A stretch of DNA of 64,000 nucleotides, taken from contig CAWIGG010000002.1 in assembly GCA_963835575.1 (NCBI GenBank), positions 198,141-262,140 of the forward strand, written 5' to 3'. Made by a program: the position numbers and the translations under genes. This document shows positions 3,755 through 54,481 of the stretch, in pieces (position 1 is the stretch's first letter; every line of letters starts with the position of its first letter). The DNA is from an uncultured Spirochaetota bacterium (GTDB lineage: Bacteria > Spirochaetota > Brevinematia > Brevinematales > JAOACQ01). A model generated the notes under the pieces. The model did no database searches. It had not been told where the DNA came from and saw only the letters and a list, made by a program, of their open reading frames with translations.

Positions 3755-5596
3755 ATGATAAAGAGAAACAAAGTGAAACTAATTTTATTAGGTTTAGGTG
3801 CAATGTTTTTTGTTCTCCAGTTTTCTACCTGCTCATTACAGTCTAATCAGGAAACTGGACAGCAAAACAATACGACGGCTGTCAATACACAGAAAGCCAC
3901 GGTTTCCAGCGTCGGGCGTCTGACAGGCGTCAACTGGTTCGGATTTGAAACCGGAAACTTCTGTCCCCATGGTCTCTGGTCCAGAGACTATAAATCCATG
4001 TTGAAGCAGATCAAAGACCTCGGTTTTAACTGTATTCGTATGCCCTGGTGCAACGATATGCTGTCGGCAACTCCCAACAGCATACAGATCAACGCTTCAG
4101 GCGTGGACGCGTACACAGGTCAGACCGGCCTGAACATGGACCTGGCCGGACTTTCTTCAATCCAGGTAATGGACAAGGTAATCGATGAGGCAACCAGGGT
4201 CGACGGTATAAAGATCATCCTGGACAACCATTCAAAGACACATGACAACTATAATAATGAAACATTATGGTACACATCATCCTGTTCGGAAAGCCAGGGT
4301 ATTTCGGATTGGCTTACTCTAATCAACCGTTATAAGAATAACGCGTATGTTTGCGGGGCCGATCTGAAGAACAAGCCTCATGGCAATATGACTACAGGTA
4401 TGAGACCGCCTGCGACCTGGGGTTATGATGAACCCGGTCAGGGAACGACAGACTGGAAAGCGGCCGCCGAAAGGATCGGTACCGCCATCCTTAACGCCAA
4501 TCCCAATATGATCATCATCGTGGAAGGCGTGGAATGCTATTACAATTATCCTACGGATACTGTTACCAACTTCTTCTGGTGGGGCGGCGAATTATCAGGT
4601 GTTGCAGACCATCCTATCACTGCTATTCCTTCTGCCCAGCTGATGTATTCTGTTCATGAGTACGGTCCCGAAGTCTATAATCAGTCCTGGTTCCAGGATT
4701 CCACATTCCCGAACAATATGCCTGCCATCTGGGACAAACATTACTATTTTATTAAAAAGAATGGCATAGGCTCTCTGTTCTTCGGTGAATTCGGCATAAC
4801 GGAATCCGCAGTAGAAGCCGGCGGAGTGGCAGCCACATGGTATAAGAACTTTATGGCATATATCGGAACCGCCAACAGCTGGACATTCTGGTGCATCAAC
4901 CCGGATTCCGGCGACACCGGCGGTATATTACAGAACAACTGGGTTACTGTAGAGCCGTCTAAATACGCGGTTTTGAAACCCTATCTGGCCGCTCAATTCT
5001 CGCCTCTCGGCGGAGCAAGTTCATCTTCATCCTCTACTGTATCTTCAGTTGCTGCGAGTTCGAGCCGGGCAGCATCCTCAGTGGCAGTCAGTTCGAGCAG
5101 ATCGAGCGCAGCTTCTTCAGTCGCTGCAAGCTCCAGCCGGGCCGCATCCAGCGTTGCTTCATCTATAGCCGCTAGTTCACGGTCCAGTGTTGCTTCTTCT
5201 GCAGCGGTTAGTTCGAGCCGGTCGAGCGCCGCATCCAGCGCCGCGGCTTCCAGTACTGCCGCTTCATCAGGCGGCGGATATGCTGTTAATTATACGGTTA
5301 ATAATGACTGGGGCGCAGGCGCCACATGCACGGTGACCGTTAAGAACAACAGCGCTACGGCTGTAAATGGATGGTCCTTAGTATGGACTTACGCTGGCAA
5401 TCAGACGCTGACGCAGATTTGGAACGCCACATATACCGCAAGCGGAGAGACCATTACCGTCACAAACGCAAGCTTTAACAATGTCATAAGCGTAAACGGC
5501 GGGACGCAGAGCTTCGGCTTCAATCTGAGCTACAGCGGGTCCAATGCAAAACCGGCTTCGTTCACTTTGAACGGAACGGCTTGCACAACATACTAA
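3755..5596 (+). CDS. GH5 cellulase-type lipoprotein - Ser linker - CBM2-like; acid/base Glu replaced by Lys
   Basis: AGGAGG RBS. Signal ending FSTC|S. GVNWFGFETGNFCPHGLWSRDYKSMLKQIKDLGFNCIRMPW. DLKNKPHG where paralogues have DLKNEPHG. Nucleophile region FFGEFG retained. Confidence 0.85.
   Translation: MIKRNKVKLILLGLGAMFFVLQFSTCSLQSNQETGQQNNTTAVNTQKATVSSVGRLTGVNWFGFETGNFCPHGLWSRDYKSMLKQIKDLGFNCIRMPWCNDMLSATPNSIQINASGVDAYTGQTGLNMDLAGLSSIQVMDKVIDEATRVDGIKIILDNHSKTHDNYNNETLWYTSSCSESQGISDWLTLINRYKNNAYVCGADLKNKPHGNMTTGMRPPATWGYDEPGQGTTDWKAAAERIGTAILNANPNMIIIVEGVECYYNYPTDTVTNFFWWGGELSGVADHPITAIPSAQLMYSVHEYGPEVYNQSWFQDSTFPNNMPAIWDKHYYFIKKNGIGSLFFGEFGITESAVEAGGVAATWYKNFMAYIGTANSWTFWCINPDSGDTGGILQNNWVTVEPSKYAVLKPYLAAQFSPLGGASSSSSSTVSSVAASSSRAASSVAVSSSRSSAASSVAASSSRAASSVASSIAASSRSSVASSAAVSSSRSSAASSAAASSTAASSGGGYAVNYTVNNDWGAGATCTVTVKNNSATAVNGWSLVWTYAGNQTLTQIWNATYTASGETITVTNASFNNVISVNGGTQSFGFNLSYSGSNAKPASFTLNGTACTTY
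5016..5269 (+). repeat. Ser-rich linker-coding degenerate tandem repeat
   Basis: ASSSSSSTVSSVAASSSRAASSVAVSSSRSS... up to GGGY. Confidence 0.8.
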
Positions 5597-5708: not shown

Positions 5709-6038
5709 ACAGAGAAAGCGTTTTAAAAAATAAAGGAGGATAAAAACCTGACTAAGGTTTTAAGTAATAACAGAAAAATAAGGTTTATGATAAAAAATTA
5801 TATTTTATAAAAAAGAAAGGGTTTTGAATCAAGAAAGGATATAATAAAAATATTTTATGGTATTGAAAGCATATCTTTTTTCACTCAGTCCTTTCCTTTA
5901 AGGCTTTATTACCCTTTTATTATTAATCTTTAACGATAAGAACGGGATGCGTTATTATGTTTTTATAATATTTTTTTAGTAAAATAATGGTATTGAGGTT
6001 AAAGTAGTACAAATATTTTAAAAAGGAGTGTGAAAGTT

Positions 6039-7850
6039 ATGAAGAGAATTCTTTCGGCAGTTATTTTACTCATTGCCGCCGTATCCTGTTCGGTTTTGGA
6101 TAACGGCAGTAATTCAGTAAATAGCGGGCAGAATCAGACTGGAAATACTGTAAAAGCGGCGCCGGCCGGGTTTGTTTACGCGCAGGGCACGCAGTTCATG
6201 ATCGACGGAAAGCCTTTCTATTTCGCCGGCTGTAACGCCTACAGCATCTTTACCGTCGGAGAGGACTGGATGACCAATTCAACCAACGATATTGAAAACT
6301 ACGCGATCGGCAAGACAAACATTGATACCTTTATGAGCAACATGGCGGTCATCGGCGTCAAGGTCTTGAGGACCTGGGGCTTCGATCACCAGGCCTGGAT
6401 GGGATATGAACCCGCGAATGGTGTATATAATGAAGCGCAGTTCATGAAATTCGACTATATCCTGCAGTCAGCCCAGAAATACGGCATCAAGGTGATCATT
6501 GTACTGGAGAATTATTGGGCGGATTATGGCGGTATAGATGCGGTACTGCAATGGTTTGGCCTTCCTTCAGGGGATTATGCGTCCAGGGTAGCATTTTTTA
6601 CAAATGCGAGCTGCATTCAGTCTTATAAAAATTATGTCCAGCACTGGTTAACCAGGCTCAACCATTACACATTGAAGACTTACAGCGCCGATCCCGCAAT
6701 ATTTTCCTGGGAATTGATGAACAAACCGAGAGGCCCGAATGGGGATAGTACCGGTACCATATTGAGGGCCTGGGTTGATCAAATGGGTTCGTATATCAAG
6801 AGCCTGGATCCGAACCATATGGTCAGCGCCGGTTTAGAGGGTCATGGAACAAAATACGGCTTCGGAGGCGATGAAGGCAACCCGTTTGTTTACATACATC
6901 AATCGCCTTATATTGATTTCTGCACGGCCCATCCTTATCCCGATGAAAGCTGGGCAAACCTTACTACAAACCAGGCTGCGGCATTGGTCGATGCATGGAT
7001 TGCCGACGCGCATGGCGTCGTCGGAAAGCCTTTTGTAATGGAGGAGTTTAATACTCATAACAATAAACAAGCCTACTGGACGGCCATGTATACGGAAATT
7101 GAAAATAAAAACGCCGCAGGGGACTGCTTCTGGAATTTTAATCTTTCTTCGACAAGCGATTTCGATATGCTTCCCGGGGATGCAGTTTTGACAGGTGTAT
7201 TTATGCCCCATGCCGCTAAAATGGCCTCCAAAAGCGGACCAGTCGGTTCTTCCAGCAGCGCGGTATCCTCAGTTGCTGTGAGTTCCAGCCGCTCCAGTAC
7301 TGTTTCATCAGCTGCGGTAAGTTCGAGCCTGTCGAGCGCAGCTTCATCAACGGCAGTCAGTTCGAGCAGATCAAGCGCGGCTTCATCAACAGCGGCAAGC
7401 TCCAGCAGATCGAGCGCAGCATCCTCTGTAGCAGTCAGCTCGAGCCGATCCAGTGTTGCGTCTTCAGTAGCAGTTTCCAGTGTTGCATCTTCAGTTGCTG
7501 TTTCCAGCGCAGCTTCTTCAGTCAGCGGCGGATATGCGGTTAATTACACCGTCAATAATGACTGGGGCGCGGGCGCTACATGCACGGTGACCATTAAGAA
7601 CAATTCCGCTACAGCCCTCAGCAGCTGGTCTCTTGTCTGGACTTTTGCAGGCAACCAGGCTATAACCCAGATATGGAGCGCCAGTCAGACTACCAGCGGT
7701 GAAATAGTGACTGCCGTGAATTTAAGCTACAATGGCACGATCGGCGCGAACGGCGGGACGCAGAGCTTCGGTTTTAATCTGAGCTACAGCGGTTCGAACG
7801 CAAAACCAACGTCGTTCACTTTGAATGGAACGGCATGCACACTTTATTAA
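6039..7850 (+). CDS. GH5 beta-mannanase-type lipoprotein - Ser linker - CBM2-like; acid/base Glu replaced by Lys
   Basis: ATG 6039 sits 10 nt after GGAG (the ORF-track GTG 6030 is less likely). Signal ending AVSC|S. FVYAQGTQFMIDGKPFYFAGCNAY, VLRTWGF. WELMNKPRG where paralogue 27264 has WELANEPRC. FVMEEF retained. Confidence 0.8.
   Translation: MKRILSAVILLIAAVSCSVLDNGSNSVNSGQNQTGNTVKAAPAGFVYAQGTQFMIDGKPFYFAGCNAYSIFTVGEDWMTNSTNDIENYAIGKTNIDTFMSNMAVIGVKVLRTWGFDHQAWMGYEPANGVYNEAQFMKFDYILQSAQKYGIKVIIVLENYWADYGGIDAVLQWFGLPSGDYASRVAFFTNASCIQSYKNYVQHWLTRLNHYTLKTYSADPAIFSWELMNKPRGPNGDSTGTILRAWVDQMGSYIKSLDPNHMVSAGLEGHGTKYGFGGDEGNPFVYIHQSPYIDFCTAHPYPDESWANLTTNQAAALVDAWIADAHGVVGKPFVMEEFNTHNNKQAYWTAMYTEIENKNAAGDCFWNFNLSSTSDFDMLPGDAVLTGVFMPHAAKMASKSGPVGSSSSAVSSVAVSSSRSSTVSSAAVSSSLSSAASSTAVSSSRSSAASSTAASSSRSSAASSVAVSSSRSSVASSVAVSSVASSVAVSSAASSVSGGYAVNYTVNNDWGAGATCTVTIKNNSATALSSWSLVWTFAGNQAITQIWSASQTTSGEIVTAVNLSYNGTIGANGGTQSFGFNLSYSGSNAKPTSFTLNGTACTLY
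7246..7525 (+). repeat. Ser-rich linker-coding degenerate tandem repeat
   Basis: GSSSSAVSSVAVSSSRSSTVSS... up to SGGY. Confidence 0.8.
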
Positions 7851-7902: not shown

Positions 7903-7935
7903 CCTCCCTCATTTATTTGAGGGAGGAACGCTTTT
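7903..7935 (+). terminator. Rho-independent terminator
   Basis: CCTCCCTC-atttattt-GAGGGAGG then T-rich tail. Overlaps the ORF-track TTG start at 7917, which I therefore reject. Confidence 0.65.
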
Positions 7936-7964
7936 ATCTTAAGAAAATTTTTGAGGAGAGTTTT

Positions 7965-10781
7965 ATGAAGAAGGTCTTTGCAATGGTTTTAGTGATAATG
8001 GCATACCTGATTATAACAGCTTGTCAGGTAATGGTTTTCAATCATGATGAGACTATTCATGATAGAATAGGGAGCAAGGCCCTCCTTTCCAACGGAATTC
8101 CAACCGTGGCATGGGTTAAGGATATTAATGCGGGAGGCTATATCGACGGCGCGTCCATCGGCGGTTTCGGCGCGGGCACGATCACTCTTCGCTTTGATGG
8201 AAATTTTTACAGAGGAAGGCTGAATATCAGCGAGAGTAATATGACTGTCGATACAAGCTGTAACTTTTATATATACCAGAAGCCGTCCGGGCAGAGCGCC
8301 GTATTTAAAAAGCTTAACGCTGCGACTCTTGGTTCGGGCCAGGCAAATTATTATTCTCTCTTTCCGGTTTCCTGGGTTGATTATTATGGAAGCGCATTCA
8401 CGGCCAAAGTCAAAGTTAAGCAGTTCAGTCCGATCATTCCCGGCGACTACCAGAGAACAAGCTATCCGGTGGGCATTTATGTCTGGTCTATCTCGAATCC
8501 GACCAGTTCTCCATGCGATGTGGCCATCATGCTGACCTGGAACAATAATTTCAGCGGCAGTACGGCTGCGGCTTTTGTTTCTAATAATAATAAAGGCATC
8601 ATTTTACAGAGGAGCGGCACTTCGGCCGCCGCTGAAAAGAACCAGGGAGAGTTTACCCTGGCCTCCCAGGAACAAACCGGAGTTTCCGTCACATATGAAT
8701 CGGCGACAGCGGTCTCAACCCTGGAAAATGATTTCTCGACAAACGGCACTCTCAAAAATTCAACGGGCAGCCATACCAACGGCGCTGTTGCTTTCAAAGT
8801 AACGCTTGCTGCCGGTCAGTCCATAAATATTCCCATCGTCCTGGCATGGGATATTCCGATTGTCCAGCTGGGGAACAAGTGGTACAGGGAATACACCAGG
8901 TATTTCAGCCGTTCAGGACTGAATTCCTCCGCGATTGCGAATGAGGCTCTCAATAATTATACGGCCTGGCAGTCGTCTGTGGACAGCTGGCAGAATAACA
9001 TCATCAACAGTTCGGTATACCCGGATTGGCTGAAGACAACGCTCTTCAACGAACTCTATTATTATTTTGTAGGCGGGACAATCTGGGAGGCCGGAGCCGC
9101 TTCGGGCCAGGCTGATAACGCAAGCGAGGATATGTTCAGTCACATGGAATGCTACGATTACGCTTTTTACGGCACATCGGACGTCCGGTTCTACGGTTCG
9201 TGGCCTCTGGCATTGCTCTGGCCTAACCTGGATAAACAGGCCGTGAAGCAGTTCAGCGACAGCATCTATAATAATAGAAGCGACCGCCCGGCGGCGCTGG
9301 GCACATGCGCGCATGATTTCGGGACAACAAACAATGTCTTTACAATATGGAACGCTTATACATACAGGGATTCCACAACCTGGAAGGATCTTAATTCCAA
9401 GTTTGTCCTGATGGTTTACAGGGATTATGTCCTGACGGGCAAAAGCGACACGACATTCCTGAATTACTGCTGGACGTCCGTCAAAACGGCGATGACCAAG
9501 GTCAAGGGACAGGATACGGATTCCGACGGCCTTCCAAATTCCACTGGAATCGATCAGACTTATGATGATATGAGCCTCTCCGGCAATACGGCCTACTGCG
9601 GAAGCCTCTTCCTTGCGGCATGTCTTGCCGCCAAGCAGATCGCGCTGGCAATGGGAGATTCTTCAACCGCAAGCACCTACCAGTCCTGGTATGACCAGGG
9701 CAAGGCCAGCTTTGAATCCAAGCTCTGGAACGGTTCCTACTATAATATAGATACCGGCAGTTCGGCGACAAACAGGATCATGAGCGATCAGCTTTGCGGT
9801 GAGTGGTACGCAAAAGCGCTTGGTCTGGGTAATATTCTGGACAGTTCTCATATTTCGAGCGCTTTCACCGTGATCTATCAGAACAACTTTAAAAAATTCG
9901 ACAGCGGTACGCATGGTGTGGTCAATGTCATGACAAGCAGCGGTTCGATTGACAGCACAAGCTCCCAGACACGGGAGATGTGGGTCGGGACTGCCTGGGG
10001 CGTTACGGCGGGAATGATCCAGGAGGGATTGACATCGCAGGCGTCCGAGATCGGGAACAGCCTTTACAGTACGATCTATTTGAACAATCAGCTCTATTTC
10101 AGGACGCCGGAAGCCTGGCAGTCGGGGGTCTCATCTATAAGGGCTTATTATTATATGAGAGCCAATGCCGTTTGGGCTGTCAAATACGCTTATGATAACG
10201 CCGGAACACCGGCCAGCTCATCCTCATCAATCAGTTCGAGCGTTATATCGAGTGCGGCATCATCAACAGCTGTCAGTTCAAGTCTGTCTAGCGCTGCTTC
10301 ATCAACAGCAGTAAGCTCGAGCCGCTCAAGCGTTGCATCGTCAGTTGCGGTCAGTTCGAGCAGATCGAGCGTTGCATCGTCAGTTGCAGTCAGTTCGAGC
10401 CGGGCCGCATCCAGTGCGGCTGCGAGCGTTGCTTCCAGTACAGCCGCTTCATCAGGCGGCGGTTATGCTGTTAATTATACCGTCAATAACGATTGGGGCG
10501 CGGGCGCTACATGCACAGTTACTGTAAAGAACAATAGCGCAACAGCAGTAAACGGCTGGACCTTAGTATGGACATTCGCAGGTAATCAAACTCTGACACA
10601 GATATGGAACGCTGCATATACCGCAAGCGGAGAGACCATTACCGTCACAAACGCAAGCTTTAACAATGTCATAGGCGCGAACGGCGGGACGCAGAGCTTT
10701 GGTTTCAATTTGAGCTACAGCGGATCCAATGCAAAACCGGCTTCGTTCACTTTGAACGGAACGGCCTGCTCAGTTTATTAA
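7965..10781 (+). CDS. GH116 (GBA2-type beta-glucosidase family) lipoprotein - Ser linker - CBM2-like
   Basis: GAGGAG RBS before ATG 7965. Signal ending ITAC|Q. IGGFGAGTI; HMECYDYAFYGTSDVRFYGSWPLALLWP; GLPNSTGIDQTYDDMSLSGNTAYCGSLFLAACLAA, which matches the GH116 nucleophile and acid/base regions as I recall them. Confidence 0.8.
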   Translation: MKKVFAMVLVIMAYLIITACQVMVFNHDETIHDRIGSKALLSNGIPTVAWVKDINAGGYIDGASIGGFGAGTITLRFDGNFYRGRLNISESNMTVDTSCNFYIYQKPSGQSAVFKKLNAATLGSGQANYYSLFPVSWVDYYGSAFTAKVKVKQFSPIIPGDYQRTSYPVGIYVWSISNPTSSPCDVAIMLTWNNNFSGSTAAAFVSNNNKGIILQRSGTSAAAEKNQGEFTLASQEQTGVSVTYESATAVSTLENDFSTNGTLKNSTGSHTNGAVAFKVTLAAGQSINIPIVLAWDIPIVQLGNKWYREYTRYFSRSGLNSSAIANEALNNYTAWQSSVDSWQNNIINSSVYPDWLKTTLFNELYYYFVGGTIWEAGAASGQADNASEDMFSHMECYDYAFYGTSDVRFYGSWPLALLWPNLDKQAVKQFSDSIYNNRSDRPAALGTCAHDFGTTNNVFTIWNAYTYRDSTTWKDLNSKFVLMVYRDYVLTGKSDTTFLNYCWTSVKTAMTKVKGQDTDSDGLPNSTGIDQTYDDMSLSGNTAYCGSLFLAACLAAKQIALAMGDSSTASTYQSWYDQGKASFESKLWNGSYYNIDTGSSATNRIMSDQLCGEWYAKALGLGNILDSSHISSAFTVIYQNNFKKFDSGTHGVVNVMTSSGSIDSTSSQTREMWVGTAWGVTAGMIQEGLTSQASEIGNSLYSTIYLNNQLYFRTPEAWQSGVSSIRAYYYMRANAVWAVKYAYDNAGTPASSSSSISSSVISSAASSTAVSSSLSSAASSTAVSSSRSSVASSVAVSSSRSSVASSVAVSSSRAASSAAASVASSTAASSGGGYAVNYTVNNDWGAGATCTVTVKNNSATAVNGWTLVWTFAGNQTLTQIWNAAYTASGETITVTNASFNNVIGANGGTQSFGFNLSYSGSNAKPASFTLNGTACSVY
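10211..10454 (+). repeat. Ser-rich linker-coding degenerate tandem repeat
   Basis: Units 10308-10346 and 10347-10385 both encode AVSSSRSSVASSV but differ at 6 synonymous positions. Confidence 0.85.
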
Positions 10782-20066: not shown

Positions 20067-22460
20067 TTGGAAACTAAACAAAATCCCGGTAAAAAGGCGC
20101 TTCCCATATTGTTTACATTAGCGGGTTGTCTAATCCCTGTTTTTATTATTTTGATAGTCTATTCTATATACCGCATTCCGGAAAAAGATAAATCCAGCAT
20201 AATTCAATTGACCGGTGTCTGGAAAATTCAGGAAGGTTTAAACCCGGATTGGACCAGGCCGGGCCTGGATGATTCAGGCTGGAAAGAAATCAAATTACCC
20301 GGAAGCTTTTATAACCAGGGCTTTCATGAAAAGTACCTGACATTAAGAAAAGATTTTACTTTAAATACAAATATGGAAAACCAGGACCTGTTTTTATTCA
20401 TCGGCGGCACCGGCGGTTCAATGGGTATGGTTTATATGAACGGATTTAAAATCGGCGAAATCGGAATGATTGTGAACGGCAGAAAGACACAGGGGGCCGA
20501 TGAAAAATTCGGGTTTTATATTAATAAACATAATATCTTAAACGGGGCGGCCGATGTTAAAAATACAATCAGCATTGAATTTGATACTATAACGCCGAGC
20601 TATGACGGTGTGCAGGACCCAAGGATCCTTCTGGGTACCTACAATAGTTTAAGATCATATTATGAGAAAAATATTTCGGCAAGTTTGTTTTTTCAATACG
20701 GGATCATATTTACCGGCATATTTGCCCTGATCATTTTATTTTTACTTTTGATGACTGAATGGGGATCACCCAACCGCAATAAATATGTTTCTACCATATT
20801 CTTTGTGTTTTCGGCAATTTTATATAATTTATTTTTTACGAATGTTTTTGTCAGATATGTTTTTGATACAATATTACTATCCAAATTATTAATTTTATCG
20901 ATTGTTTTTTTATGCCCGGCAACCCTGGATTATGTCCAGTATTTCTTTACCAATAAGACGAATATATTGTCAAAAATAAACAGAGTGGTTTGTTTGCTTG
21001 TTGTTGTAATGGTTTTTGCCATTCAGGATTTTGTCATAGTCAAATTGATCCATGGCTATTTTATCATGTACTTTTTTGTTGTAATTGTATATATATGTGC
21101 CTTTTGTGTGGCCCATACTCTTAAAGCCCGGGAAAAGTACAATGCCGTTGTTATTACTGTTTCGATTATAATCGGCGCGGTTTCAGGTATTTCCGACCTG
21201 TTGACCAACTTGGGATTGATTCATATGCCGCTTTTATTCAGCATTACCATTTCCATTTTTATTGTGATGAGCGCCATGGTGATTATCGCTGATTTTATAA
21301 AGATCAGCGATTATAATAAAACACTTTCTCTGGAATTGAGCCAGTTGAACGTGAACCTTGAAGCCAAGGTTTCTGAAAGGACAAAGGAATTGAGCCAGGC
21401 CAATGAAAAACTGAAGAAGCTGGATACTGTTAAAAACGATTTTATTGCCAATATTACCCACGATTTCCGGTCTCCTCTCACAGTCATACTGAATACGGCG
21501 GATTTAAACTTAAAAGAACACAAAGACAATCCTTATAAAAGTGAATTTGAAATGATACTGTCTTCTTCCTACCGCATGAAAAATTATATTGACCGGCTTC
21601 TGGATTTAGCGAAGATGGATGCGGGGGCCATAAAACTAAAAATCAGAAAAACAGATATTGTACAATTTTTAGAAACAATCGCAAGTTATTATCAATCGGC
21701 GATAATAAATACCAACATCAAAATTATAACCAGTTTTCCTGAAATTCCGGTGGAAAATTTTTATACTGACGAGGAAAAATTGGATGAGGTAATCAGCAAT
21801 ATCCTGTCCAATGCGATCAAATATGTCAGTATTGAAAACGGGATTATAGAAATTGAGGTGAGAGATGAACCGGATACGGTCCTGATTATTATATCAGACA
21901 ATGGCATAGGAATACCTGAAGATAAACTGGAATTTATTTTTGAGAGGTTTGAACAGCTGGAAAGCGGGAGAAATACAAAATTCAGCGGGAGCGGGATCGG
22001 TCTTGCTTTTGCAAAACAGCTGGTGGAATTTATGAAAGGAAAAATATGGGCGGAATCGGGAGGTGAAAATAAGGGCTCCAGATTTATGATCAGGCTGCCG
22101 AGAGGCAAAGCCGCTTTTGATGATCAAGAAATTTCAACCGAATCAATGAAAGCGACATCCTTATCCCGTTTCAAGAAATTGGTAGAGTATGATATCGGTA
22201 GAAAAATTCAAAAAGAAGAACTGGAATTTTATATCAAGGAAAGAAATAAAGAAAACGAATTTGTCCTCAAAAAAAGCGTGATATTAATAATTGACGATGA
22301 AAAATCAATCGCCGGAATCGTGATGAACTATCTTCTAATCAATGGATTTGAAAACTTTATTATCGCTAATAACGGTAAAACCGGCCTGAAAGCCGTGTAT
22401 CAATACACGCCGGATGTCATATTGTGCGATTATAACATGCCCGGGGCTCACGGGCAGTGA
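20067..22460 (+). CDS. Sensor histidine kinase (7TMR-DISMED2-like sensor + 7 TM + HisKA + HATPase_c) with N-terminal half of a receiver domain; 5' part of a frameshifted hybrid gene
   Basis: TTG start. Extracytoplasmic LTGVWKIQEGLNPDWTRPGLDDSGWKEIKLPGSF...LTLRKDFTL. Multiple TM helices. H-box ANITHDFRSPLT. DNGIGIP, GSGIGLAFAKQLV. REC start VILIIDDEKS...DVILCDYNMPG, then a premature stop. Confidence 0.8.
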   Translation: METKQNPGKKALPILFTLAGCLIPVFIILIVYSIYRIPEKDKSSIIQLTGVWKIQEGLNPDWTRPGLDDSGWKEIKLPGSFYNQGFHEKYLTLRKDFTLNTNMENQDLFLFIGGTGGSMGMVYMNGFKIGEIGMIVNGRKTQGADEKFGFYINKHNILNGAADVKNTISIEFDTITPSYDGVQDPRILLGTYNSLRSYYEKNISASLFFQYGIIFTGIFALIILFLLLMTEWGSPNRNKYVSTIFFVFSAILYNLFFTNVFVRYVFDTILLSKLLILSIVFLCPATLDYVQYFFTNKTNILSKINRVVCLLVVVMVFAIQDFVIVKLIHGYFIMYFFVVIVYICAFCVAHTLKAREKYNAVVITVSIIIGAVSGISDLLTNLGLIHMPLLFSITISIFIVMSAMVIIADFIKISDYNKTLSLELSQLNVNLEAKVSERTKELSQANEKLKKLDTVKNDFIANITHDFRSPLTVILNTADLNLKEHKDNPYKSEFEMILSSSYRMKNYIDRLLDLAKMDAGAIKLKIRKTDIVQFLETIASYYQSAIINTNIKIITSFPEIPVENFYTDEEKLDEVISNILSNAIKYVSIENGIIEIEVRDEPDTVLIIISDNGIGIPEDKLEFIFERFEQLESGRNTKFSGSGIGLAFAKQLVEFMKGKIWAESGGENKGSRFMIRLPRGKAAFDDQEISTESMKATSLSRFKKLVEYDIGRKIQKEELEFYIKERNKENEFVLKKSVILIIDDEKSIAGIVMNYLLINGFENFIIANNGKTGLKAVYQYTPDVILCDYNMPGAHGQ

Positions 22461-23361
22461 AGTTCATGACGCGATAGTTGATAACCCGAAATACAATCAA
22501 ATTCCATTTATATTTTTGTCCGCTGTGGCGGATAGAAATTTAATTATTGAACGCAGGGAAAAAGGGGCAAATGCTTATTTAAAGAAACCGATAGATGAAA
22601 ATGATCTTGTGCTGACGGTAAATCTTCATCTGAAAAAATATTTTGAATATTTAAAAACCCTGGAGCTTGCGGCCATAGATGAACTAACAGGATTATACAA
22701 CAGGCGGGAAATCATCAAGCGGCTGCATGAAGAGCTGGCTGTCAGAAAATTTATGGAATTATCGCTTATATTTTTTGATGTAGACCATTTTAAAGAAATA
22801 AACGACCGGTACGGCCATCCCATCGGCGATCGGGTTTTAAGAACTATAGGAAGAATCATAAAAGGAAACCTCAGGCCCTATGATATATCGGCAAGATATG
22901 GAGGAGATGAGTTTCTGATAATCCTGCCTCAAACAAATTCGGAAAATGCCGTTCGGGTAGCGGAAATATTAAAAAAGAGTTTCGCCGAAGAAAAAATCCT
23001 TCAAAGTGAGAATGTTCTTGCTATTACCTGCAGTTTCGGTATTTCATCACTGATCGGCAACCAGAAAGACCTTGAAAAAGAACTGCATTTGAAGGATTTA
23101 AAAAAGATTTATGAGATAAAAGATTCCGCGAAAGCAGATTGGAAAATGATTCGGGAGACAAAAGAAAAGATTGCCGAAGTTCTAATAAGTTTTGCCGACA
23201 AAGCGCTTTATCAATCAAAAAAAACGGTGTGCGAAGACTGCGGATATTATTCTGAAAAAGAAGAAGATTTTCATAATAACAAATGCCCGAAATGCGGAAG
23301 TAAAAAACTGTCCGGCAGGAATAAAGTCAGTCTGTATTCGCATGATGAAAGCGCTGGTTAA
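22414..23361 (+). CDS. Rest of receiver domain + GGDEF diguanylate cyclase + C-terminal Cys4 zinc ribbon; 3' part of the frameshifted hybrid gene
   Basis: From 22447 reads LTGSEVHDAI...FIFLSAVAD...ANAYLKKP (REC continuation). FFDVDHFKEINDRYGHPIGDRVL, ARYGGDEFLIILP. CEDCGYY...CPKCGSKK. Confidence 0.8.
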   Translation: MSYCAIITCPGLTGSEVHDAIVDNPKYNQIPFIFLSAVADRNLIIERREKGANAYLKKPIDENDLVLTVNLHLKKYFEYLKTLELAAIDELTGLYNRREIIKRLHEELAVRKFMELSLIFFDVDHFKEINDRYGHPIGDRVLRTIGRIIKGNLRPYDISARYGGDEFLIILPQTNSENAVRVAEILKKSFAEEKILQSENVLAITCSFGISSLIGNQKDLEKELHLKDLKKIYEIKDSAKADWKMIRETKEKIAEVLISFADKALYQSKKTVCEDCGYYSEKEEDFHNNKCPKCGSKKLSGRNKVSLYSHDESAG

Positions 23362-23482: not shown

Positions 23483-24355
23483 GTGCGCCCGGCAGGGCGC
23501 ACGTTCTTGCGGGTGAAAGTCCCGTATGCACCCGGTAAGGGGAATCCCTCACCAGTTTGTGAACTTCTCCGGGCAGCCGGACAAACTGGTGAGGGACAGA
23601 CGGCAAGGGTGTCCGCCGTGAGGCGGAATCTGAAGGAAGCTGCAGGCAAAGCACTGGTCTGACGAACAGAAACCGCATAGAGGCGGCACTGCTGGGTGAG
23701 ACGGCAATTATCGTTAAAGCCCGATACTTACACAGAAAGCAATGGCGTAGATGCGGCAGACATAAGTGTGAAGGAACGAGCGCATTACCCGGGGAGGTCT
23801 GACAGCCTGCCACATATTGGCTATTGTCATCGAAAGGTGATAAGAGGGGTTTTCAGAAGTCAGCAGAAGCCATAGTAACCTCTTGACCGGAGGCGAAGGG
23901 CAGAACCAAACTATAGGAGTACCGCTATGAATCCTGACACGGTAACTTACGCAGAAGCGGAAGGAAACTTTCCGGCTTTGACAAAGGATAGGGACGGAAT
24001 TCCGAAGAATAGCCAAAGCGCGTGTATCCGTGCAGAGAGTCAAAGAAGGAGTACACCGGATGAAACAAATTTAATAGAGCGTCTGGTCAAACGCGAGAAC
24101 ATGCTGGAAGCTTATCACAGGGTGGTAAGCAATAAGGGGGCGGCGGGAGTTGACGGAGTCACTGTAAAACAGCTAAAAGGCTTCATCAACAAACATATGA
24201 ACATCGCCTTTCCTAAGAAATTATTCGACAGTATGGGACTCGTATCGATGCTGAACAAGATTTGTATTTATCAGAAATTATATTTTGGAACCGCCGTATA
24301 CGGAACCGTACGTACGGTGGTGTGAGAGGTCGGCGGGTGTAAACCCGCCTCCTAC
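23483..24355 (+). mobile_element. Group II intron, bacterial class C-like, with internally deleted IEP ORF
   Basis: 5' GTGCGCCCGG. Domain V hairpin CCGCCGTATACGG-AAC-CGTACGTACGGTGG (24291-24320) with a CGC triad and 2-nt bulge. Short domain VI ending ...CCTAC. Residual RT ORF. Position directly 3' of a terminator stem-loop. Confidence 0.75.
23927..24325 (+). pseudogene. Remnant of the intron-encoded reverse transcriptase/maturase (N-terminal RT0 region fused to the extreme C-terminus)
   Basis: LIERLVKRENMLEAYHRVVSNKGAAGVDGVTVKQLKGFINKH joins directly to ...FPKKLFDSMGLVSML...GTAVYGTVRTVV. RT domains 1-7 and X are absent. Confidence 0.7.
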
Positions 24356-27208: not shown

Positions 27209-27240
27209 TATACCGTCCTTCGTTATGAAGGGCGGTATAT
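27209..27240 (+). terminator. Hairpin terminator candidate
   Basis: ATACCGTCCTTC-gttat-GAAGGGCGGTAT; weak T tract. Overlaps the ORF-track start 27225, which I reject. Confidence 0.45.
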
Positions 27241-27263
27241 TTCCATACAGGGAGAAAAGTTTT

Positions 27264-29156
27264 ATGAACATGAGACAAAAATCACAATTATCAAAAAGTA
27301 TTATCCTGATTTTTCTGGCTTTAATAATGGGCTCCTGTACGGTTTTATCACCGGACCACGTTAATAGCGGCAGTCAGATAAATAATAATACTGAGAGAGC
27401 AACGGACATGAATAGTTTTGTCAAGACTTCCGGAACGCAGTTTGTCGTCAGCGGGAAAACTTTTTATTTTAACGGGGCCAACCAGTATTATCTGTTCTAC
27501 AAATCCCATGCCATGGTTACCGAGGTTATCACCGATGCCGCCGCTCTGGGACTTACCGTTATCAGGACCTGGGGTTTCTGCGACGGAGCGCCAAAGGACA
27601 ACAACTTCGGCTTCCAGCAGAGCGCCGGGGTTTATGATGAGGCGACATTCAAACAGATGGATTTTACGATCAATACCTGCAAACAATACGGCATCCGTCT
27701 GGTTATCCCGCTGGTCAATAACTGGGACGATATGGGCGGTATGGACCAGTATGTCATATGGGCAGGAGCTTCAGCTCATGACGATTTTTACACAAACGTG
27801 CAGTGCCGGACCCTTTATAAGAGCTATGTCAATTATTTTTTGAACAGGACGAATTCTATAACGGGAGTCGTGTATAAAAACGATCCCACCATCATGATGT
27901 GGGAACTGGCCAATGAGCCCCGCTGCGACAGCGACATGACCGGCATGAAGCTGAGCAACTGGATCAATGAAATGGCCGGTTATATCAAGAGCATCGATCA
28001 GAACCATCTGGTTTCGATCGGTTCAGAAGGATTTTTCAAGGGGGTCGGATACGGCTATCTTTATGACGGCTCTTCGGGATGTGATTTTGTCGGCCATAAC
28101 AGGATCCAGTATATTGACGCGTGTTCCGCTCATCTTTATCCATCCAGCTGGGGCATTTCCACGAACGATGCCGTCAACTGGATCATTATGGGGGCGACGA
28201 ACGCTCATGTCACAGTAGGCAAGCCGTATTATCTGGGTGAATTCGGTTATCCGGATCATACCGCGCGCAATCAGATTTATCAGGACTGGTACAATACGCT
28301 TTATGCTTACAACGCGGACGGGGCCATGTTCTGGCTTCTGAGCGGCCATCAGGATGACGGTTCCCTCTATCCGGACTATGACGGTTTTACCGTCTATTAT
28401 CCCCAGGACACAAATACATGCGCCGTTATATCGGCATACTCCGTCAAGGCAAACGCCGAAACCGGGCAAACCCCGGCTTCCGCGGCCAGCAGTACTGCTG
28501 TATCTTCTGTCAGTTCGAGCCGGTCTTCCAGCAGTGCGAGCAGCGCAGTTTCCTCGTCAGTCATTTCCAGCCGCTCGAGCTCGAGCGCGGCAATTTCATC
28601 GGCAGTCAGTTCGAGCCGGTCGAGCGTTGCATCCTCAATTGCCGTAAGTTCGAGCCATTCCAGTGCAGCTTCTTCTGCGGCTGTGAGTTCGAGCAGATCG
28701 AGCGTAGCATCTTCAGTTGCGGTAAGCTCCAGCCGGTCGAGCGTAGCTTCTTCAGCAGCAGTCAGCTCAAGCCTTGCCGCATCCAGTGTTGCAGCTTCTA
28801 GCGTGGCTTCCAGCACAGCAGTTTCATCAGGCAGCGGATATGCAGTTAATTACACCGTCAACAATGACTGGGGTGCGGGCGCAACATGCACAGTGACGAT
28901 TAAGAACAATAGCGCGACAGCCCTCAGCAGCTGGTCTCTTGTCTGGACTTTTGCAGGCAACCAGGCTATAACCCAGATATGGAGCGCCAGTCAGACTACC
29001 AGCGGTGAAACAGTGACTGCCGTGAATTTAAGCTACAACGGTACGATCGGCGCGAGCGGCGGGACTCAGAGCTTTGGCTTCAATCTGAGCTACAGCGGAT
29101 CCAATGCAAAACCGGCTTCGTTCACTTTGAATGGGTCGGCGTGCACGCTTTATTAA
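27264..29156 (+). CDS. GH5 (subfamily-7-like) beta-mannanase lipoprotein - Ser linker - CBM2-like
   Basis: ATG 27264 after GGGAGAAAAG. Signal ending IMGSC|T. FVKTSGTQFVVSGKTFYFNGANQYY, VIRTWGF, WELANEPRC, YYLGEFGYPD. Confidence 0.85.
   Translation: MNMRQKSQLSKSIILIFLALIMGSCTVLSPDHVNSGSQINNNTERATDMNSFVKTSGTQFVVSGKTFYFNGANQYYLFYKSHAMVTEVITDAAALGLTVIRTWGFCDGAPKDNNFGFQQSAGVYDEATFKQMDFTINTCKQYGIRLVIPLVNNWDDMGGMDQYVIWAGASAHDDFYTNVQCRTLYKSYVNYFLNRTNSITGVVYKNDPTIMMWELANEPRCDSDMTGMKLSNWINEMAGYIKSIDQNHLVSIGSEGFFKGVGYGYLYDGSSGCDFVGHNRIQYIDACSAHLYPSSWGISTNDAVNWIIMGATNAHVTVGKPYYLGEFGYPDHTARNQIYQDWYNTLYAYNADGAMFWLLSGHQDDGSLYPDYDGFTVYYPQDTNTCAVISAYSVKANAETGQTPASAASSTAVSSVSSSRSSSSASSAVSSSVISSRSSSSAAISSAVSSSRSSVASSIAVSSSHSSAASSAAVSSSRSSVASSVAVSSSRSSVASSAAVSSSLAASSVAASSVASSTAVSSGSGYAVNYTVNNDWGAGATCTVTIKNNSATALSSWSLVWTFAGNQAITQIWSASQTTSGETVTAVNLSYNGTIGASGGTQSFGFNLSYSGSNAKPASFTLNGSACTLY
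28476..28829 (+). repeat. Ser-rich linker-coding degenerate tandem repeat
   Basis: ASAASSTAVSSVSSSRSSSSASS... Confidence 0.8.
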
Positions 29157-29356: not shown

Positions 29357-29503
29357 GATGGGATAGAAGAATATTTATAATGAGAAAAAGTTAATAATAG
29401 ATAAGTCATTCAGCCCTGTCCGGGCCGGTGCCGCATCCCCCCCCGACCGCGGTATTCGGTTCCGGACCGGGCGAAAATGACGGATAAAAAATGGAGGAAC
29501 ATT

Positions 29504-37496: not shown

Positions 37497-38743
37497 TAAT
37501 AATGAATATTCCGGGCTGGCGATATACGTCAGCCCGGTTATATAAAAAAATAGGAATTGTAATAGTATGATGAAAATCAATACTTTTATATAAACTCTTG
37601 TTTTTGTAGAATAAACAACCAAACTGGCAAGTTTTTAATGCGTCTTGATTGAAGTCTCTGCCGTGTTAAGTGTGAGGTTTTAAATAATAATGAAATTTTT
37701 TGTTTCAATAATGAATATAAGAAAGGAGTATGCTATGAAGCTATTGAAGATGAAAGTTTTATTACTGTCCGGAAGCATGCTGTGCTTTTTATGGTCATGC
37801 TCGTAAGCCCTTTGAGTGAGAAAAGTCAGTCATTGTCTTTCACCGCGGTGAAAGCGACGGCGAGCGGAAAGTTTCTGGGTAATATCTGGGGAGGCAGTTC
37901 CGAGCCCCTCAATTTCAGTACATACTGGAACCAGGTGACTCCTGAAAACGCCGGGAAATGGGGTTCCGTGGAATCCAGCCAGGGAACCTATAACTGGAGC
38001 GCATTGGACGCGCAATACAGTTATGCTAAATCCAGAGGATATCCTTTTAAATTCCATAATCTGATCTGGGGCAGCCAGCAGCCTGCCTGGATCAGCACTT
38101 TGTCGGCCGCGAACCAGGTGCTGGCGGTCATCGATTGGATTTCGAATGTCGGCGCGAGATACAGCAATTTAGACTTCATAGATGTGGTCAATGAACCTCT
38201 GCATTCGCCGCCCTCCTATTCGAATGCGATGGGCGGAAGCGGCTCCACCGGCTGGGACTGGATTGTTTTTGCATTTCAACAGGCGCGGAAGTATTGCGGG
38301 AATGCAAAACTGCTTATCAATGAGTATGGCGTGGAGGGCAACACCACGGCCATGGCAAACTACACGAATATCATCAGTATTCTTAAGGCTTCGAATTTGA
38401 TAGATGGAGTGGGAGTCCAGGGGCATGATTTCAGTCTTGACGGCTGTTCACTAAGCACGCTGTCGAACTGCTTGTCTATGATTGCGGCCACAGGATTGCC
38501 GATCTATATTTCGGAGCTTGATCTTTCATCTACTGATGACACTGTCCAGCTTGGTCTTTATCAGAAGTATTTCCCGGCATTGTGGGAAAATCCGGATGTC
38601 ATGGGTGTTACTTTGTGGGGTTATATTCAAGGCTCAATATGGACTTCCAATGCTTTTCTTCTCTACACAAACGGCACGGAACGCCCTGCTCTGACATGGC
38701 TGACGAATTATGTGAGAGGCGGGGCTTCTTCTGCAGGCGGATC

Positions 38744-39188
38744 CATCCAGGTTTTTTTCTACAACGGAAATACCAGTACATCAGTAAACAGCCTTTCCCT
38801 TAATTTTCTTATATCCAATACGGGACTCTCCATCATCAATTTAACCAATGTGACTCTCCGCTATTACTACACCATTGACAGCGCAACGAATCAGATCTTC
38901 AACTGTAATTACTCGACTTTAGGCAACAGCAGTGTGACCGGAAGTTTTGTAACGATGCCGAATCCCGGGCCGACTGCAGACAGATATGTTCAGATCGGCT
39001 TTACGAGTGCGGCCGGAAGCCTGTATGCCGGGAATAGCGCTGTGGTTCAAGTTGCGGTAAATAAAAGTGACTGGTCCAGTTATATACAAACAAATGATTA
39101 TTCATTTAATTCCTCGGCCGCAACATATACGTCCTGGTCAAAAGTGACCGGGTATATCTCAGGCACGCTTGCATTTGGCACAGAGCCG
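38744..39188 (+). other. CBM3-like module inside the GH10 gene
   Basis: IQVFFYNGNTSTSVNSLSLNFLISNTGLSIINLTNVTLRYYYTIDS...NKSDWSSYIQTNDYSF...VTGYISGTLAFGTEP. Confidence 0.75.
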
Positions 39189-54384: not shown

Positions 54385-54446
54385 CTAACTACAGATAAAT
54401 AGATGCACATGGATAGAAAACGGCCCGAATCTGTGTTTATCCGCGC

Positions 54447-54457: not shown

Positions 54458-54481
54458 ATACGTGGGCAGGGAGGATGAATA

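What the first reader, a model, noticed from the sequence alone, without database searches (positions are those of the whole stretch)
4370..4378. GH5 cellulase paralogue with the catalytic acid/base Glu replaced by Lys (N-K-P instead of N-E-P)
**Seen.**
- Codons 4370-4378 read AAC AAG CCT (DLKNKPHG).
- The two close paralogues read DLKNEPHG (29504 and 31374 genes; AAC GAA CCC in the former).
- The rest of the protein is conserved and full length, including the nucleophile region FFGEFG, the signal peptide, the linker and the CBM.

**Established.** In clan GH-A/GH5 the Glu of the N-E-P motif at the end of strand 4 is the general acid/base.

**Inference.**
- This is a maintained pseudo-enzyme that could act as a substrate-binding or sensing lectin. 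Alternatively it is an enzyme with altered chemistry.
- It is not a decaying pseudogene.
- The neighbouring mannanase carries the same substitution, which argues against a random error.
Basis: partly seen in the sequence, partly recalled or inferred. Interest (0 to 1): 0.6.

Follow-up and report, generated by a model that had tools for sequence, protein, structure and literature searches.

The report
Two neighbouring GH5 enzymes lacking acid/base Glu
Two adjacent, otherwise intact cell-surface plant-fibre enzymes (a cellulase and a mannanase) each carry lysine in place of the glutamate needed to cut sugar chains, so they most likely bind fibre without cutting it; this kind of dead enzyme is known, but conservation and function could not be tested here.

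Summary
Window 4370-4378 reads AAC AAG CCT, and K207 of the GH5_1-CBM2 protein (3755..5596) aligns with the acid/base Glu of solved GH5_1 endoglucanases (E162 in E1, E201 in EGPh). The neighbouring GH5_7 mannanase (6039..7850) reads AAC AAA CCG at the equivalent position.

Both lysines are in the public assembly record. They are unique: about 355 other GH5_1 domains and 120 mannanase homologues all have Glu.

Both genes are otherwise well kept:
- dN/dS is 0.08 against the Glu-bearing paralogue, with no extra amino-acid change on the Lys lineages.
- The nucleophile, the other cleft residues, the ribosome-binding sites, the lipoprotein signals, the linkers and the CBM2 modules are all intact.

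Random decay or random base-call error hitting the same residue twice is improbable (about 0.002 even after allowing for ascertainment). I found no sequence context that would explain systematic miscalling.

Best reading (about 0.55): genuine, selectively retained, hydrolytically dead fibre-binding lipoproteins.

The limits are that no orthologue exists in the databases, so conservation of Lys is untested. Reads were unavailable. The window also holds two homopolymer frameshifts. Natural non-catalytic GH5 modules are already described, so this is a new member of a known kind, of moderate interest.

The parts
3755..5596 (+). Gene A: 613-aa lipoprotein-type GH5_1 endoglucanase homologue + Ser-rich linker + CBM2, with Lys at the acid/base position
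   Evidence: ORF. Pfam PF00150 at 5.9e-41 and PF00553 at 1.1e-28. Identical to database protein P0001. Shine-Dalgarno AAAGGAGGAG upstream.
3755..3832 (+). Signal peptide ending in the lipobox-like FSTC (Cys26 at 3830-3832)
   Evidence: Read from the translation. The same ..SCS/..ACS/..GCS pattern occurs in the other enzymes of the cluster. No dedicated predictor was run.
3911..5005 (+). GH5_1 catalytic (beta/alpha)8 domain
   Evidence: phmmer hit to 1ece at E = 2e-87. AlphaFold pLDDT 88.9. Foldseek top hit 1ece with TM 0.81-0.84.
4370..4378 (+). N206-K207-P208 (AAC AAG CCT). The K207 codon at 4373-4375 replaces the general acid/base Glu.
   Evidence: Glu is present in all other aligned homologues.
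4787..4789 (+). Nucleophile Glu345 (FFGEFG), retained
   Evidence: In the model it lies at the end of strand 296-302 in domain numbering.
4937..4939 (+). N395 (AAC) where every other homologue has Asp. This is a second change at an otherwise invariant column, and also a G>A change.
5270..5593 (+). CBM2 cellulose-binding module of A, preceded by the Ser-rich linker at about 5006-5269
6039..7850 (+). Gene D: 603-aa lipoprotein-type GH5_7 beta-mannanase homologue + linker + CBM2, with Lys at the acid/base position. The mechanical ORF starts at GTG 6030.
   Evidence: ORF. Identical to P0121 from ATG 6039. PDB hits 9m20, 8gf3 and 1rh9 at E = 4e-47 to 1e-43. The database gives PF26410 for P0121. Shine-Dalgarno AAAGGAG upstream.
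6720..6728 (+). N-K-P of the mannanase (AAC AAA CCG). The K codon is at 6723-6725. It is K229 counted from ATG 6039 and K232 counted from GTG 6030.
   Evidence: It aligns with Glu of 'WELMNEPR' in solved mannanases and in 120 of 120 other homologues.
7044..7046 (+). Nucleophile Glu of the mannanase (VMEEF), retained
7527..7847 (+). CBM2 of D
29477..31288 (+). Paralogue B (GH5_1-CBM2), with Glu (AAC GAA CCC at 30122-30130). It is 87% identical to A in the catalytic domain and shares patches of gene conversion with A.
31374..33215 (+). Paralogue C (GH5_1-CBM2), with Glu (AAT GAG CCG at 31989-31997)
27225..29156 (+). Distant mannanase paralogue E (GH5_7-like, CBM2), with Glu (AAT GAG CCC at 27912-27920)

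Best explanation
Both lysines are real. They mark two hydrolytically dead (or severely crippled) GH5 paralogues that are kept as folded, cell-anchored glycan-binding proteins.

Each protein is exported and probably lipid-anchored through its N-terminal Cys. Each is tethered to fibre by its C-terminal CBM2. Each still has a complete substrate cleft and nucleophile.

Without the general acid, the cleft cannot protonate the glycosidic oxygen of a sugar leaving group. It can therefore hold a beta-1,4-glucan chain (A) or a mannan/glucomannan chain (D) without cutting it. Possible roles are a holdfast, a chain-capturing surface protein, a sensor or a decoy, acting beside the active paralogues of the same cluster.

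Shown: the substitutions, their position, their uniqueness, and the strong constraint on the rest of both genes.

Inferred: loss of hydrolysis (from established clan GH-A mechanism and from acid/base mutants used to trap substrate), selection for the substitution, and the binding role.
For: **Position.** K207 aligns with E162 of E1 and E201 of EGPh. The EGPh E201A variant was crystallised with intact cellotetraose according to its PDB title. The mannanase K aligns with Glu of WELMNEPR.

**Not degenerating.**
- A against B gives dS 1.10, dN 0.084 and dN/dS 0.077.
- Derived amino-acid changes are 15 on A against 19 on B, and 20 on D against 24 on its closest active homologue P0122.
- 52 of 54 and 35 of 37 otherwise-invariant columns are kept, including the nucleophile and N of the NEP motif.
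- Allowing at most one further hit on about 53 invariant codons bounds any neutral drift after E>K to roughly 0.04 substitutions per site or less. This is my calculation.

**Non-random.** Only 4 hits on invariant columns occur in the two proteins, and 2 of them are the acid/base Glu. The probability is about (2/54) x (2/37), or 0.002, before requiring the same product residue. This is my calculation. A generic loss of function would far more often be a stop codon, a frameshift or another missense change.

**Signals intact.** Both Shine-Dalgarno sequences, both signal peptides, the linkers and the CBM2 modules are intact.

**No context for systematic miscalling.**
- GAACGA occurs 13 times and TCGTTC 8 times, all intact.
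- The identical 10-mer AACGAACCGA keeps G in the GH10 gene at 36027.
- AACGA is not depleted.

**Precedent.** Natural non-catalytic GH5 modules are described, including a GH5_1-derived group and lipoproteins near GH5_8 (PMC3526467). Other precedents are a conserved dead GH26 in a mannan locus (PMC12704710) and a non-enzymatic decoy paralogue of a GH12 (PMC12003678).
Against: - No orthologue carries Lys, because no orthologue exists in any collection searched. Long-term maintenance of Lys is therefore undemonstrated.
- The constraint statistics average over the whole history since divergence and would look the same if both substitutions were very recent.
- The same window has two homopolymer frameshifts. 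Either the assembly has errors or the genome carries fresh lesions.
- A also has D395N at an invariant column, and D has F126Y. This could be the first sign of relaxation.
- The one experimentally studied analogue I read (S. copri GH26B) showed no binding to any glycan tested.
- No binding or activity data exist for these proteins.
Confidence: 0.55

Rival explanations
1. Very recent strain-specific inactivating alleles. Both E>K changes are fresh loss-of-function mutations in genes made redundant by the many paralogues. The genes are at the very start of pseudogenisation and have no new role.
For: - Lys is unique and not seen in any relative.
- The window also holds a frameshifted HK-REC-GGDEF gene, a GH10 gene cut off from its signal peptide, and a degraded group II intron. 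Lesions are therefore accumulating here.
- A and D each have one further change at an invariant column.
- The cluster is highly redundant: three GH5_1 genes and four mannanase-type GH5 genes.
Against: Two independent random lesions landing on the same catalytic residue and giving the same amino acid in adjacent genes is improbable, at about 0.002 or less even when only hits on invariant columns are counted. The target for generic loss of function (stops, frameshifts) is hundreds of times larger. No other sign of relaxation is present.
Confidence: 0.15
2. Assembly or base-calling artefact. The true bases are G at 4373 and 6723, and both proteins are ordinary active enzymes.
For: - Both changes, and D395N, are G>A transitions before an A. 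That is the class of error that methylation induces in nanopore consensus, with minimal motif RA/TY (PMC11610573).
- Two homopolymer-length frameshifts in 64 kb (GGGG for GGG at about 22441-22447, and G for GG at about 37803) are typical of long-read-only assemblies.
- The source contig is 2.05 Mb and occurs once in the databases.
- A type IIG methyltransferase gene lies in the window.
Against: - Random substitution errors at about 1e-5 to 1e-4 per base cannot hit two acid/base codons.
- A context-specific error is not supported. 21 GAACGA/TCGTTC sites are intact, including GATGAACGAG at 62756. The identical AACGAACCGA keeps G at 36027. AACGA is not depleted.
- An 834-bp recently converted repeat pair differs at only a few positions, so the substitution error rate is low.
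Confidence: 0.08
3. Enzymes with residual or altered chemistry. The Lys variants might still turn over substrate slowly. They might act only on substrates with good leaving groups or an anionic group that pairs with Lys. They might favour transfer over hydrolysis.
For: - The nucleophile and all other cleft residues are retained.
- Retaining glycosidases without an acid/base can still form the glycosyl-enzyme with activated substrates. This is established knowledge of thioglycoligase-type mutants and of GH1 myrosinase, which naturally lacks the acid/base.
- Aspeborg et al. note that GH5 modules with incomplete machinery might have alternative mechanisms.
Against: - No glycoside hydrolase family is known to me to use Lys as the general acid.
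- Natural cellulose and mannan have poor leaving groups that require acid catalysis.
- There is no compensating change near the active site. The flanking residues are the same as in the active paralogue.
- Both subfamilies otherwise show zero tolerance for change at this column.
Confidence: 0.1
4. Conditional restoration of Glu by A-to-I mRNA editing (AAG>IAG and AAA>IAA are read as Glu).
For: The only support is that both Lys codons are one A>I step from Glu. That is true of any E>K change.
Against: Known bacterial mRNA editing by TadA needs a TACG loop motif (my knowledge). Neither site (GAACAAGCC, GAACAAACC) contains it. There is no other evidence.
Confidence: 0.01

Closest known systems
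GH5 subfamily 1 endo-beta-1,4-glucanases (Acidothermus cellulolyticus E1, PDB 1ece; Pyrococcus horikoshii EGPh, PDB 2zum/3qhn)
   Same: Same fold and about 40-55% identity. The nucleophile Glu, the Asn of NEP, and the His/Tyr/Trp/Arg cleft residues are the same. The modular layout with a cellulose-binding module is the same.
   Different: The acid/base Glu (E162 in E1, E201 in EGPh) is Lys. All roughly 355 other natural members examined have Glu.
Engineered acid/base mutants of GH5_1 used to trap substrate (EGPh E201A-cellotetraose, PDB 3qhn)
   Same: The same residue is removed, giving a cleft that holds an uncut oligosaccharide (PDB title).
   Different: Here the change is natural and goes to a long cationic side chain rather than Ala. 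Binding has not been measured.
Natural non-catalytic GH5 modules (Aspeborg et al. 2012: GH5_30; a Xanthomonas GH5_1-derived module fused to expansin and CBM63; lipoproteins near GH5_8; one GH5_48 member)
   Same: These are GH5 modules with incomplete catalytic machinery. One group arises from GH5_1 and one consists of lipoproteins. The lone GH5_48 case is otherwise still similar to its subfamily, as here (PMC3526467).
   Different: The described groups sit on long, fast-evolving branches and form small clades. A and D show no acceleration, differ by essentially one residue, and have no relatives that share the loss.
Segatella copri GH26B, a predicted-inactive mannanase homologue in a glucomannan utilisation locus
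   Same: It is a dead clan GH-A paralogue encoded beside active mannan-degrading enzymes, predicted to lie at the cell surface and proposed to be a binding protein (PMC12704710).
   Different: Both catalytic Glu are lost in GH26B, and the loss is conserved in more than 60 genomes. No binding was detected for it. Here only the acid/base is lost, and conservation is untestable.
Phytophthora XLP1, the non-enzymatic paralogue of the GH12 xyloglucanase XEG1 (decoy)
   Same: It is an inactive paralogue kept next to, or together with, an active enzyme and under selection (PMC12003678).
   Different: XLP1 is eukaryotic, belongs to a different family and is a truncated protein whose role is to bind a host inhibitor. 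No inhibitor context is known here.

Membership tests
Glycoside hydrolase family 5, subfamily 1 (retaining endoglucanases, clan GH-A) | Sequence and fold homology to the (beta/alpha)8 GH5 catalytic domain | tested here: met
   PF00150 at 5.9e-41. 1ece at E = 2e-87. AlphaFold model with Foldseek TM 0.81-0.84 to 1ece.
Glycoside hydrolase family 5, subfamily 1 (retaining endoglucanases, clan GH-A) | Nucleophile Glu at the end of strand 7 | tested here: met
   E345 in FFGEFG, an invariant column.
Glycoside hydrolase family 5, subfamily 1 (retaining endoglucanases, clan GH-A) | General acid/base Glu in the N-E-P motif after strand 4 | tested here: not met
   K207 (AAG, 4373-4375) aligns with E162 of E1 and E201 of EGPh. 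The protein is therefore a homologue of the family but does not meet its catalytic definition.
Glycoside hydrolase family 5, subfamily 1 (retaining endoglucanases, clan GH-A) | Hydrolysis of beta-1,4-glucan | not testable with these tools
   Requires enzyme assays.
GH5 subfamily 7-type beta-mannanases (neighbouring gene D) | Homology plus the nucleophile Glu and the acid/base Glu of WELxNEPR | tested here: not met
   Homology is met (9m20, 8gf3 and 1rh9 at E = 4e-47 to 1e-43) and the nucleophile is kept (VMEEF). The acid/base residue is Lys (AAA, 6723-6725). 120 of 120 other homologues have Glu.
Natural non-catalytic GH modules / pseudo-glycosidases acting as binding proteins | Loss of at least one catalytic residue in an otherwise intact, expressed-looking gene | tested here: met
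Natural non-catalytic GH modules / pseudo-glycosidases acting as binding proteins | The loss is conserved among orthologues (maintained state) | tested here: inconclusive
   No orthologue was found. The nearest relative of A is the Glu-bearing paralogue B (74% over the full length). The nearest relative of D is P0122 (78% in the catalytic domain, Glu, different genomic context).
Natural non-catalytic GH modules / pseudo-glycosidases acting as binding proteins | Purifying selection continuing after the loss | tested here: inconclusive
   Overall dN/dS is 0.077 and there is no lineage acceleration. The date of the E>K change on the branch is unknown.
Natural non-catalytic GH modules / pseudo-glycosidases acting as binding proteins | Glycan binding without turnover | not testable with these tools
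   Requires binding and activity assays.
CBM2 cellulose-binding module | Match to the family profile over its full length | tested here: met
   PF00553 at 1e-28, profile positions 3-101 of 101, for A and D. 18 intact copies lie in the window.

The most novel reading that the evidence does not exclude
A spirochaete-type fibre degrader (the nearest named relatives are Brevinematales MAGs) has converted a cellulase and a mannanase, in parallel and by the same single E>K step, into non-cutting chain-holding lipoproteins. These would work beside their active paralogues as a minimal, one-residue route to surface glycan-binding proteins, analogous in role to the SGBPs of Bacteroidota loci or to decoy paralogues.
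Probability: 0.4. Interest if true: 0.55.

Novelty: new member of a known kind. Interest (0 to 1): 0.4.

Why it matters
If the lysines are real and retained, this locus shows the earliest possible stage of turning a glycoside hydrolase into a binding protein. One residue is changed and everything else is still under constraint, and it has happened twice in neighbouring genes of different subfamilies.

That would supply clean natural material for asking what a dead enzyme cleft adds to a CBM-bearing surface protein in a lipoprotein-based cellulolytic system. It would also caution against counting such genes as active cellulases or mannanases in genome-based estimates of degradative capacity.

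If the lysines are errors or fresh lesions, the finding is ordinary.

Tried and rejected
**Source and orthologue searches**
- Exact-protein contig look-ups for A, D, P0002 and P0004 found nothing on record. The source organism and its neighbourhood beyond the window could not be retrieved. Cluster look-up gave no names.
- A single-protein scan of GTDB representative genomes found no relative. The profile scan found 78 loci at 66% identity or less, all with Glu.
- I looked for synteny among the nearest relatives. P0003 sits in a tandem GH5-CBM64 pair in an unrelated context, and P0122 is on a 4.7-kb contig. Neither is an orthologue.
- Exact DNA scans of JGI metagenome contigs, with R at the variable base, gave 0 hits for both sites.

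**Searching for other NKP-bearing GH5_1 proteins**
- I designed a Lys-weighted profile probe.
- The padded probe returned only 8 candidates and did not recover the positive control P0001. That search is uninformative, not negative.

**Systematic G>A conversion or miscalling at a shared motif**
- All three G>A changes at invariant columns share GAAC-G-A.
- I rejected this as an explanation. AACGA and GAACGA are not depleted, and identical contexts keep G.

**Other ideas**
- TadA-type mRNA editing is rejected because neither site has a TACG motif.
- Full-text searches for a natural E>K acid/base variant in GH5, and for a cellulolytic Brevinematales with CBM2, returned nothing relevant.
- I considered the mutation spectrum of the CBM2 copies as an error gauge. 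It was only partly pursued, through one 834-bp repeat pair.
Full report
**1. The observation**

Window 4370-4378 reads AAC AAG CCT. It lies in a 613-aa ORF, 3755..5596 on the + strand, which I call A. The local peptide is GADLKNKPHGNM.

Pfam assigns a GH5 catalytic domain (PF00150, 5.9e-41) and a C-terminal CBM2 (PF00553, 1.1e-28).

- B reads AAC GAA CCC at 30122-30130.
- C reads AAT GAG CCG at 31989-31997.

The neighbouring ORF, D, runs 6030..7850. Its likely start is ATG 6039. It reads AAC AAA CCG at 6720-6728, in WELMNKPRG.

The database proteins P0001 (613 aa) and P0121 (603 aa) are identical to A and D. Both come from one 2.05-Mb contig held by NCBI and ENA. The Lys codons are therefore part of the deposited assembly, not a peculiarity of the window.

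**2. Is it the acid/base position?**

phmmer against all PDB chains gives Acidothermus cellulolyticus E1 (1ece) as the best match, at E = 2e-87.
- 'dlkNKPh' of A aligns with 'dlhNEPh' of E1. Counting along the chain, that Glu is residue 162. From my knowledge of the E1 structure paper, E162 is the proton donor and E282 the nucleophile.
- The same column is E201 of Pyrococcus horikoshii EGPh by count. The PDB entry titles name E201A and E342A as the substrate-trapping mutants.

An AlphaFold2 model of the catalytic domain has mean pLDDT 88.9. It places K three residues after strand 155-160 and the FFGEFG Glu at the end of strand 296-302. Its best fold match in the PDB is 1ece, with TM 0.81-0.84.

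For D, the top PDB matches are GH5 beta-mannanases (9m20, 8gf3, 1rh9, at E = 4e-47 to 1e-43). K aligns with Glu of their 'WELxNEPR' motif.

The refutation condition 'the motif is not at the acid/base position' is therefore not met.

**3. How unusual is it?**

| Set examined | Residue at the acid/base column |
|---|---|
| 120 best database homologues of A, plus the window paralogues | Glu in 121 of 123; the only Lys are A and its database copy |
| 120 best database homologues of D, plus the window paralogue | Glu in 120 of 122; the only Lys are D and its database copy |
| 82 GH5_1 genes in 78 loci of GTDB species representatives | Glu in all |
| 152 domain alignments from 144 further representatives of 50%-identity clusters (exhaustive HMMER search of 1.84 billion proteins) | Glu in all |

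The other clan GH-A enzymes of the window keep N-E-P or N-E-S. These are GH5 at 17875 and 33234, GH10 at 35571 and 37782, and a GH51-like protein at 40396. By eye, the GH9, GH12 and GH8 enzymes keep their acidic residues.

So two adjacent genes, and only those two, carry the change.

**4. State of the two genes**

A and B are old paralogues. Over the catalytic domain dS is 1.10, dN is 0.084 and dN/dS is 0.077. Patches of recent gene conversion are present, with 60 codons differing only at 9 synonymous sites.

I polarised the A/B differences with about 120 outgroups. This gives 15 A-derived and 19 B-derived amino-acid changes. D and its closest active homologue P0122 are 78% identical with dS saturated. 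They give 20 D-derived and 24 P0122-derived changes. Neither Lys lineage is accelerated.

Of the columns that are invariant in all other homologues:
- A deviates at 2 of 54 (E207K and D395N).
- D deviates at 2 of 37 (E232K and F126Y, numbered from GTG 6030).
- The nucleophile, the Asn of NEP and the His/Tyr/Trp/Arg cleft residues are all kept.

Both genes have strong Shine-Dalgarno sequences, signal peptides ending in a Cys, Ser-rich linkers and intact CBM2 modules.

If the domain had drifted neutrally after E>K, one further hit on about 53 invariant codons bounds that drift to roughly 0.04 substitutions per site or less. This is a small fraction of the branch and is my calculation. Either the substitutions are recent, or selection on the fold and cleft has continued.

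**5. Chance, error or selection?**

The chance that one of A's two hits and one of D's two hits are both the acid/base residue is about (2/54) x (2/37), or 0.002. This is before requiring Lys in both. Generic loss of function has a much larger target in stops and frameshifts. Random decay is therefore a poor explanation.

Random base-call error is worse still.

I examined a systematic error. All three G>A changes at invariant columns sit in GAAC-G-A. Methylation-induced nanopore errors are mostly A/G or C/T ambiguities with a minimal RA/TY motif (PMC11610573). Against that:
- 13 GAACGA and 8 TCGTTC sites are intact, including GATGAACGAG at 62756.
- AACGA is not depleted.
- The identical 10-mer AACGAACCGA keeps its G in the GH10 gene at 36027.

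A caution remains. The window holds two homopolymer frameshifts:
- An extra G in CCCGGGG splits a receiver domain between ORFs 20067..22460 and 22414..23361.
- A missing G separates the signal peptide of the GH10 gene at 37782 from its body.

The assembly, or the genome, is therefore not lesion-free. Without reads I cannot exclude an artefact.

**6. Orthologues**

The key test, conservation of Lys in relatives, could not be done.
- The closest protein to A among 5.8 billion is its Glu-bearing paralogue B (74% over the full length, 87% in the catalytic domain). Next is a metagenomic GH5-CBM64 (P0003, 74% in the domain) that lies in an unrelated tandem pair.
- The closest protein to D is P0122, on a 4.7-kb contig.
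- The source genome is absent from the contig index and from the GTDB representative set.
- DNA scans of JGI metagenomes for either site found nothing.
- A Lys-weighted probe search failed technically.
- The nearest named taxa are Brevinematales and Spirochaetota MAGs, at 63-66% identity.

**7. Mechanism**

In clan GH-A retaining enzymes, the Glu of N-E-P protonates the leaving glycosidic oxygen and then activates water. This is established knowledge.

Without that Glu, cleavage of a sugar leaving group is reduced by orders of magnitude, while substrate binding is preserved. This is why EGPh E201A could be crystallised with cellotetraose (PDB title).

A Lys at that position leaves the cleft and the nucleophile in place (shown). 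It should give a protein that holds a glucan chain (A) or a mannan chain (D) without cutting it (inferred).

With an N-terminal lipid anchor (inferred from the Cys-containing signal peptides) and a C-terminal CBM2 (shown), the most likely role is a non-hydrolytic fibre- or chain-binding surface protein working beside active paralogues. I give this about 0.55.

Rivals:
- Fresh strain-specific lesions with no new role: 0.15.
- Altered or residual chemistry: 0.10.
- Assembly artefact: 0.08.
- mRNA editing back to Glu: 0.01. Neither site has a TACG motif.

**8. Comparison with what is known**

By homology, A is a GH5_1 protein and D a GH5_7-type protein. By the catalytic definition of those families, one defining feature (the acid/base Glu) was tested and is not met.

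Natural non-catalytic GH5 modules are already described by Aspeborg et al. 2012 (PMC3526467):
- subfamily GH5_30;
- a Xanthomonas group derived from GH5_1;
- lipoproteins near GH5_8;
- a lone GH5_48 member that the authors consider a possible snapshot of the early steps.

Other precedents:
- A dead GH26 paralogue, conserved in more than 60 Segatella copri genomes, sits in a glucomannan locus. No binding was detected for it (PMC12704710).
- Phytophthora keeps a non-enzymatic GH12 paralogue as a decoy (PMC12003678).

The present case differs in three ways. It is minimal, with one residue changed and no acceleration. It occurs in two neighbouring genes of different subfamilies. It has no relatives that share the change.

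**9. Verdict**

It is a new member of a known kind (naturally inactivated GH5 modules), pending read-level confirmation. Interest is moderate at 0.4. The parallel E>K in adjacent genes is a real oddity that is cheap to test, but dead glycosidase paralogues are an established phenomenon.

Noticed in passing
window 22414-22460 (ORFs 20067..22460 and 22414..23361, + strand): A 7TM-sensor histidine kinase / receiver / GGDEF gene in the middle of the cluster is split by a +1 frameshift in CCCGGGG. Pfam finds Response_reg positions 1-57 in the first ORF and 53-110 in the second. This is either a real pseudogene or a homopolymer assembly error.
   Followed up: partly
window 37735-37806 and 37782..39845 (+): The GH10-CBM3-CBM2 gene is separated from its own signal peptide and lipobox (MKLLKMKVLLLSGSMLCFLWSCS*) by a 1-base deletion: TCGTAA where the paralogue implies TCGGTAA.
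   Followed up: partly
window about 23400-24360 (+): A group II intron remnant. Rfam hits are RF02001 (141.7 bits, 23612-23782), RF01998 (23821-23901) and RF00029 domain V/VI (24289-24360). Only a short N-terminal piece of the reverse-transcriptase ORF remains (23927..24325).
   Followed up: partly
window 229-45211 (+), 18 genes: This is a very large one-strand CAZyme cluster: four GH9, three GH5_1, four mannanase-type GH5, two GH10, one each of GH12, GH8 and GH116, one GH51-like protein, and a partial gene at the window start. Every protein ends in a near-identical CBM2 behind a Ser-rich (SSxAxSS) linker. Most begin with a Cys-containing lipoprotein-type signal peptide. Several also carry CBM3, CBM64 or CBM6.
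   Followed up: partly
window 18999-19832 vs 36650-37483; also 4475-4650 vs the matching part of 29477..31288: Recent gene conversion between distant cluster members. One 834-bp tract (CBM64-linker-CBM2) has 14 mismatches, most of them at its end. A tract of about 60 codons in A and B differs only at synonymous sites.
   Followed up: partly
window 45951..47729 and 47726..49303 (- strand): Two membrane glycosyltransferases lie directly after the cluster. One is PMT (protein O-mannosyltransferase)-like with an F5/8 type C hint, and the other is GT87/ALG6-like. They are candidates for O-glycosylating the Ser-rich linkers.
   Followed up: no
window 7917..10781 (+): A GH116 (GBA2-type beta-glucosidase) fused to a CBM2. 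It lies immediately downstream of the two Lys-bearing genes, behind a strong terminator-like hairpin at 7902-7927.
   Followed up: no
window 4937-4939 and 6405-6407: Second changes at otherwise invariant columns: D395N in A (AAC, also G>A) and F>Y in D (TAT). Their structural roles are unknown.
   Followed up: partly
window 51292..57103 (+): An Eco57I/MmeI-like type IIG restriction-modification enzyme (1030 aa) is followed by an SMC/AAA_21-type ATPase (873 aa). An Eco57I-type site, CTGAAG, happens to lie 8 nt upstream of the K207 codon (4361-4366). The enzyme's specificity is unknown.
   Followed up: no
AlphaFold model of window 3887-5014: Model confidence drops to a mean pLDDT of 57 for residues 161-170 of the domain, the loop that starts at N-K-P. 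It is 95-98 in the flanking blocks. This could be loop flexibility, or a conflict between Lys in the query and Glu in the alignment.
   Followed up: no
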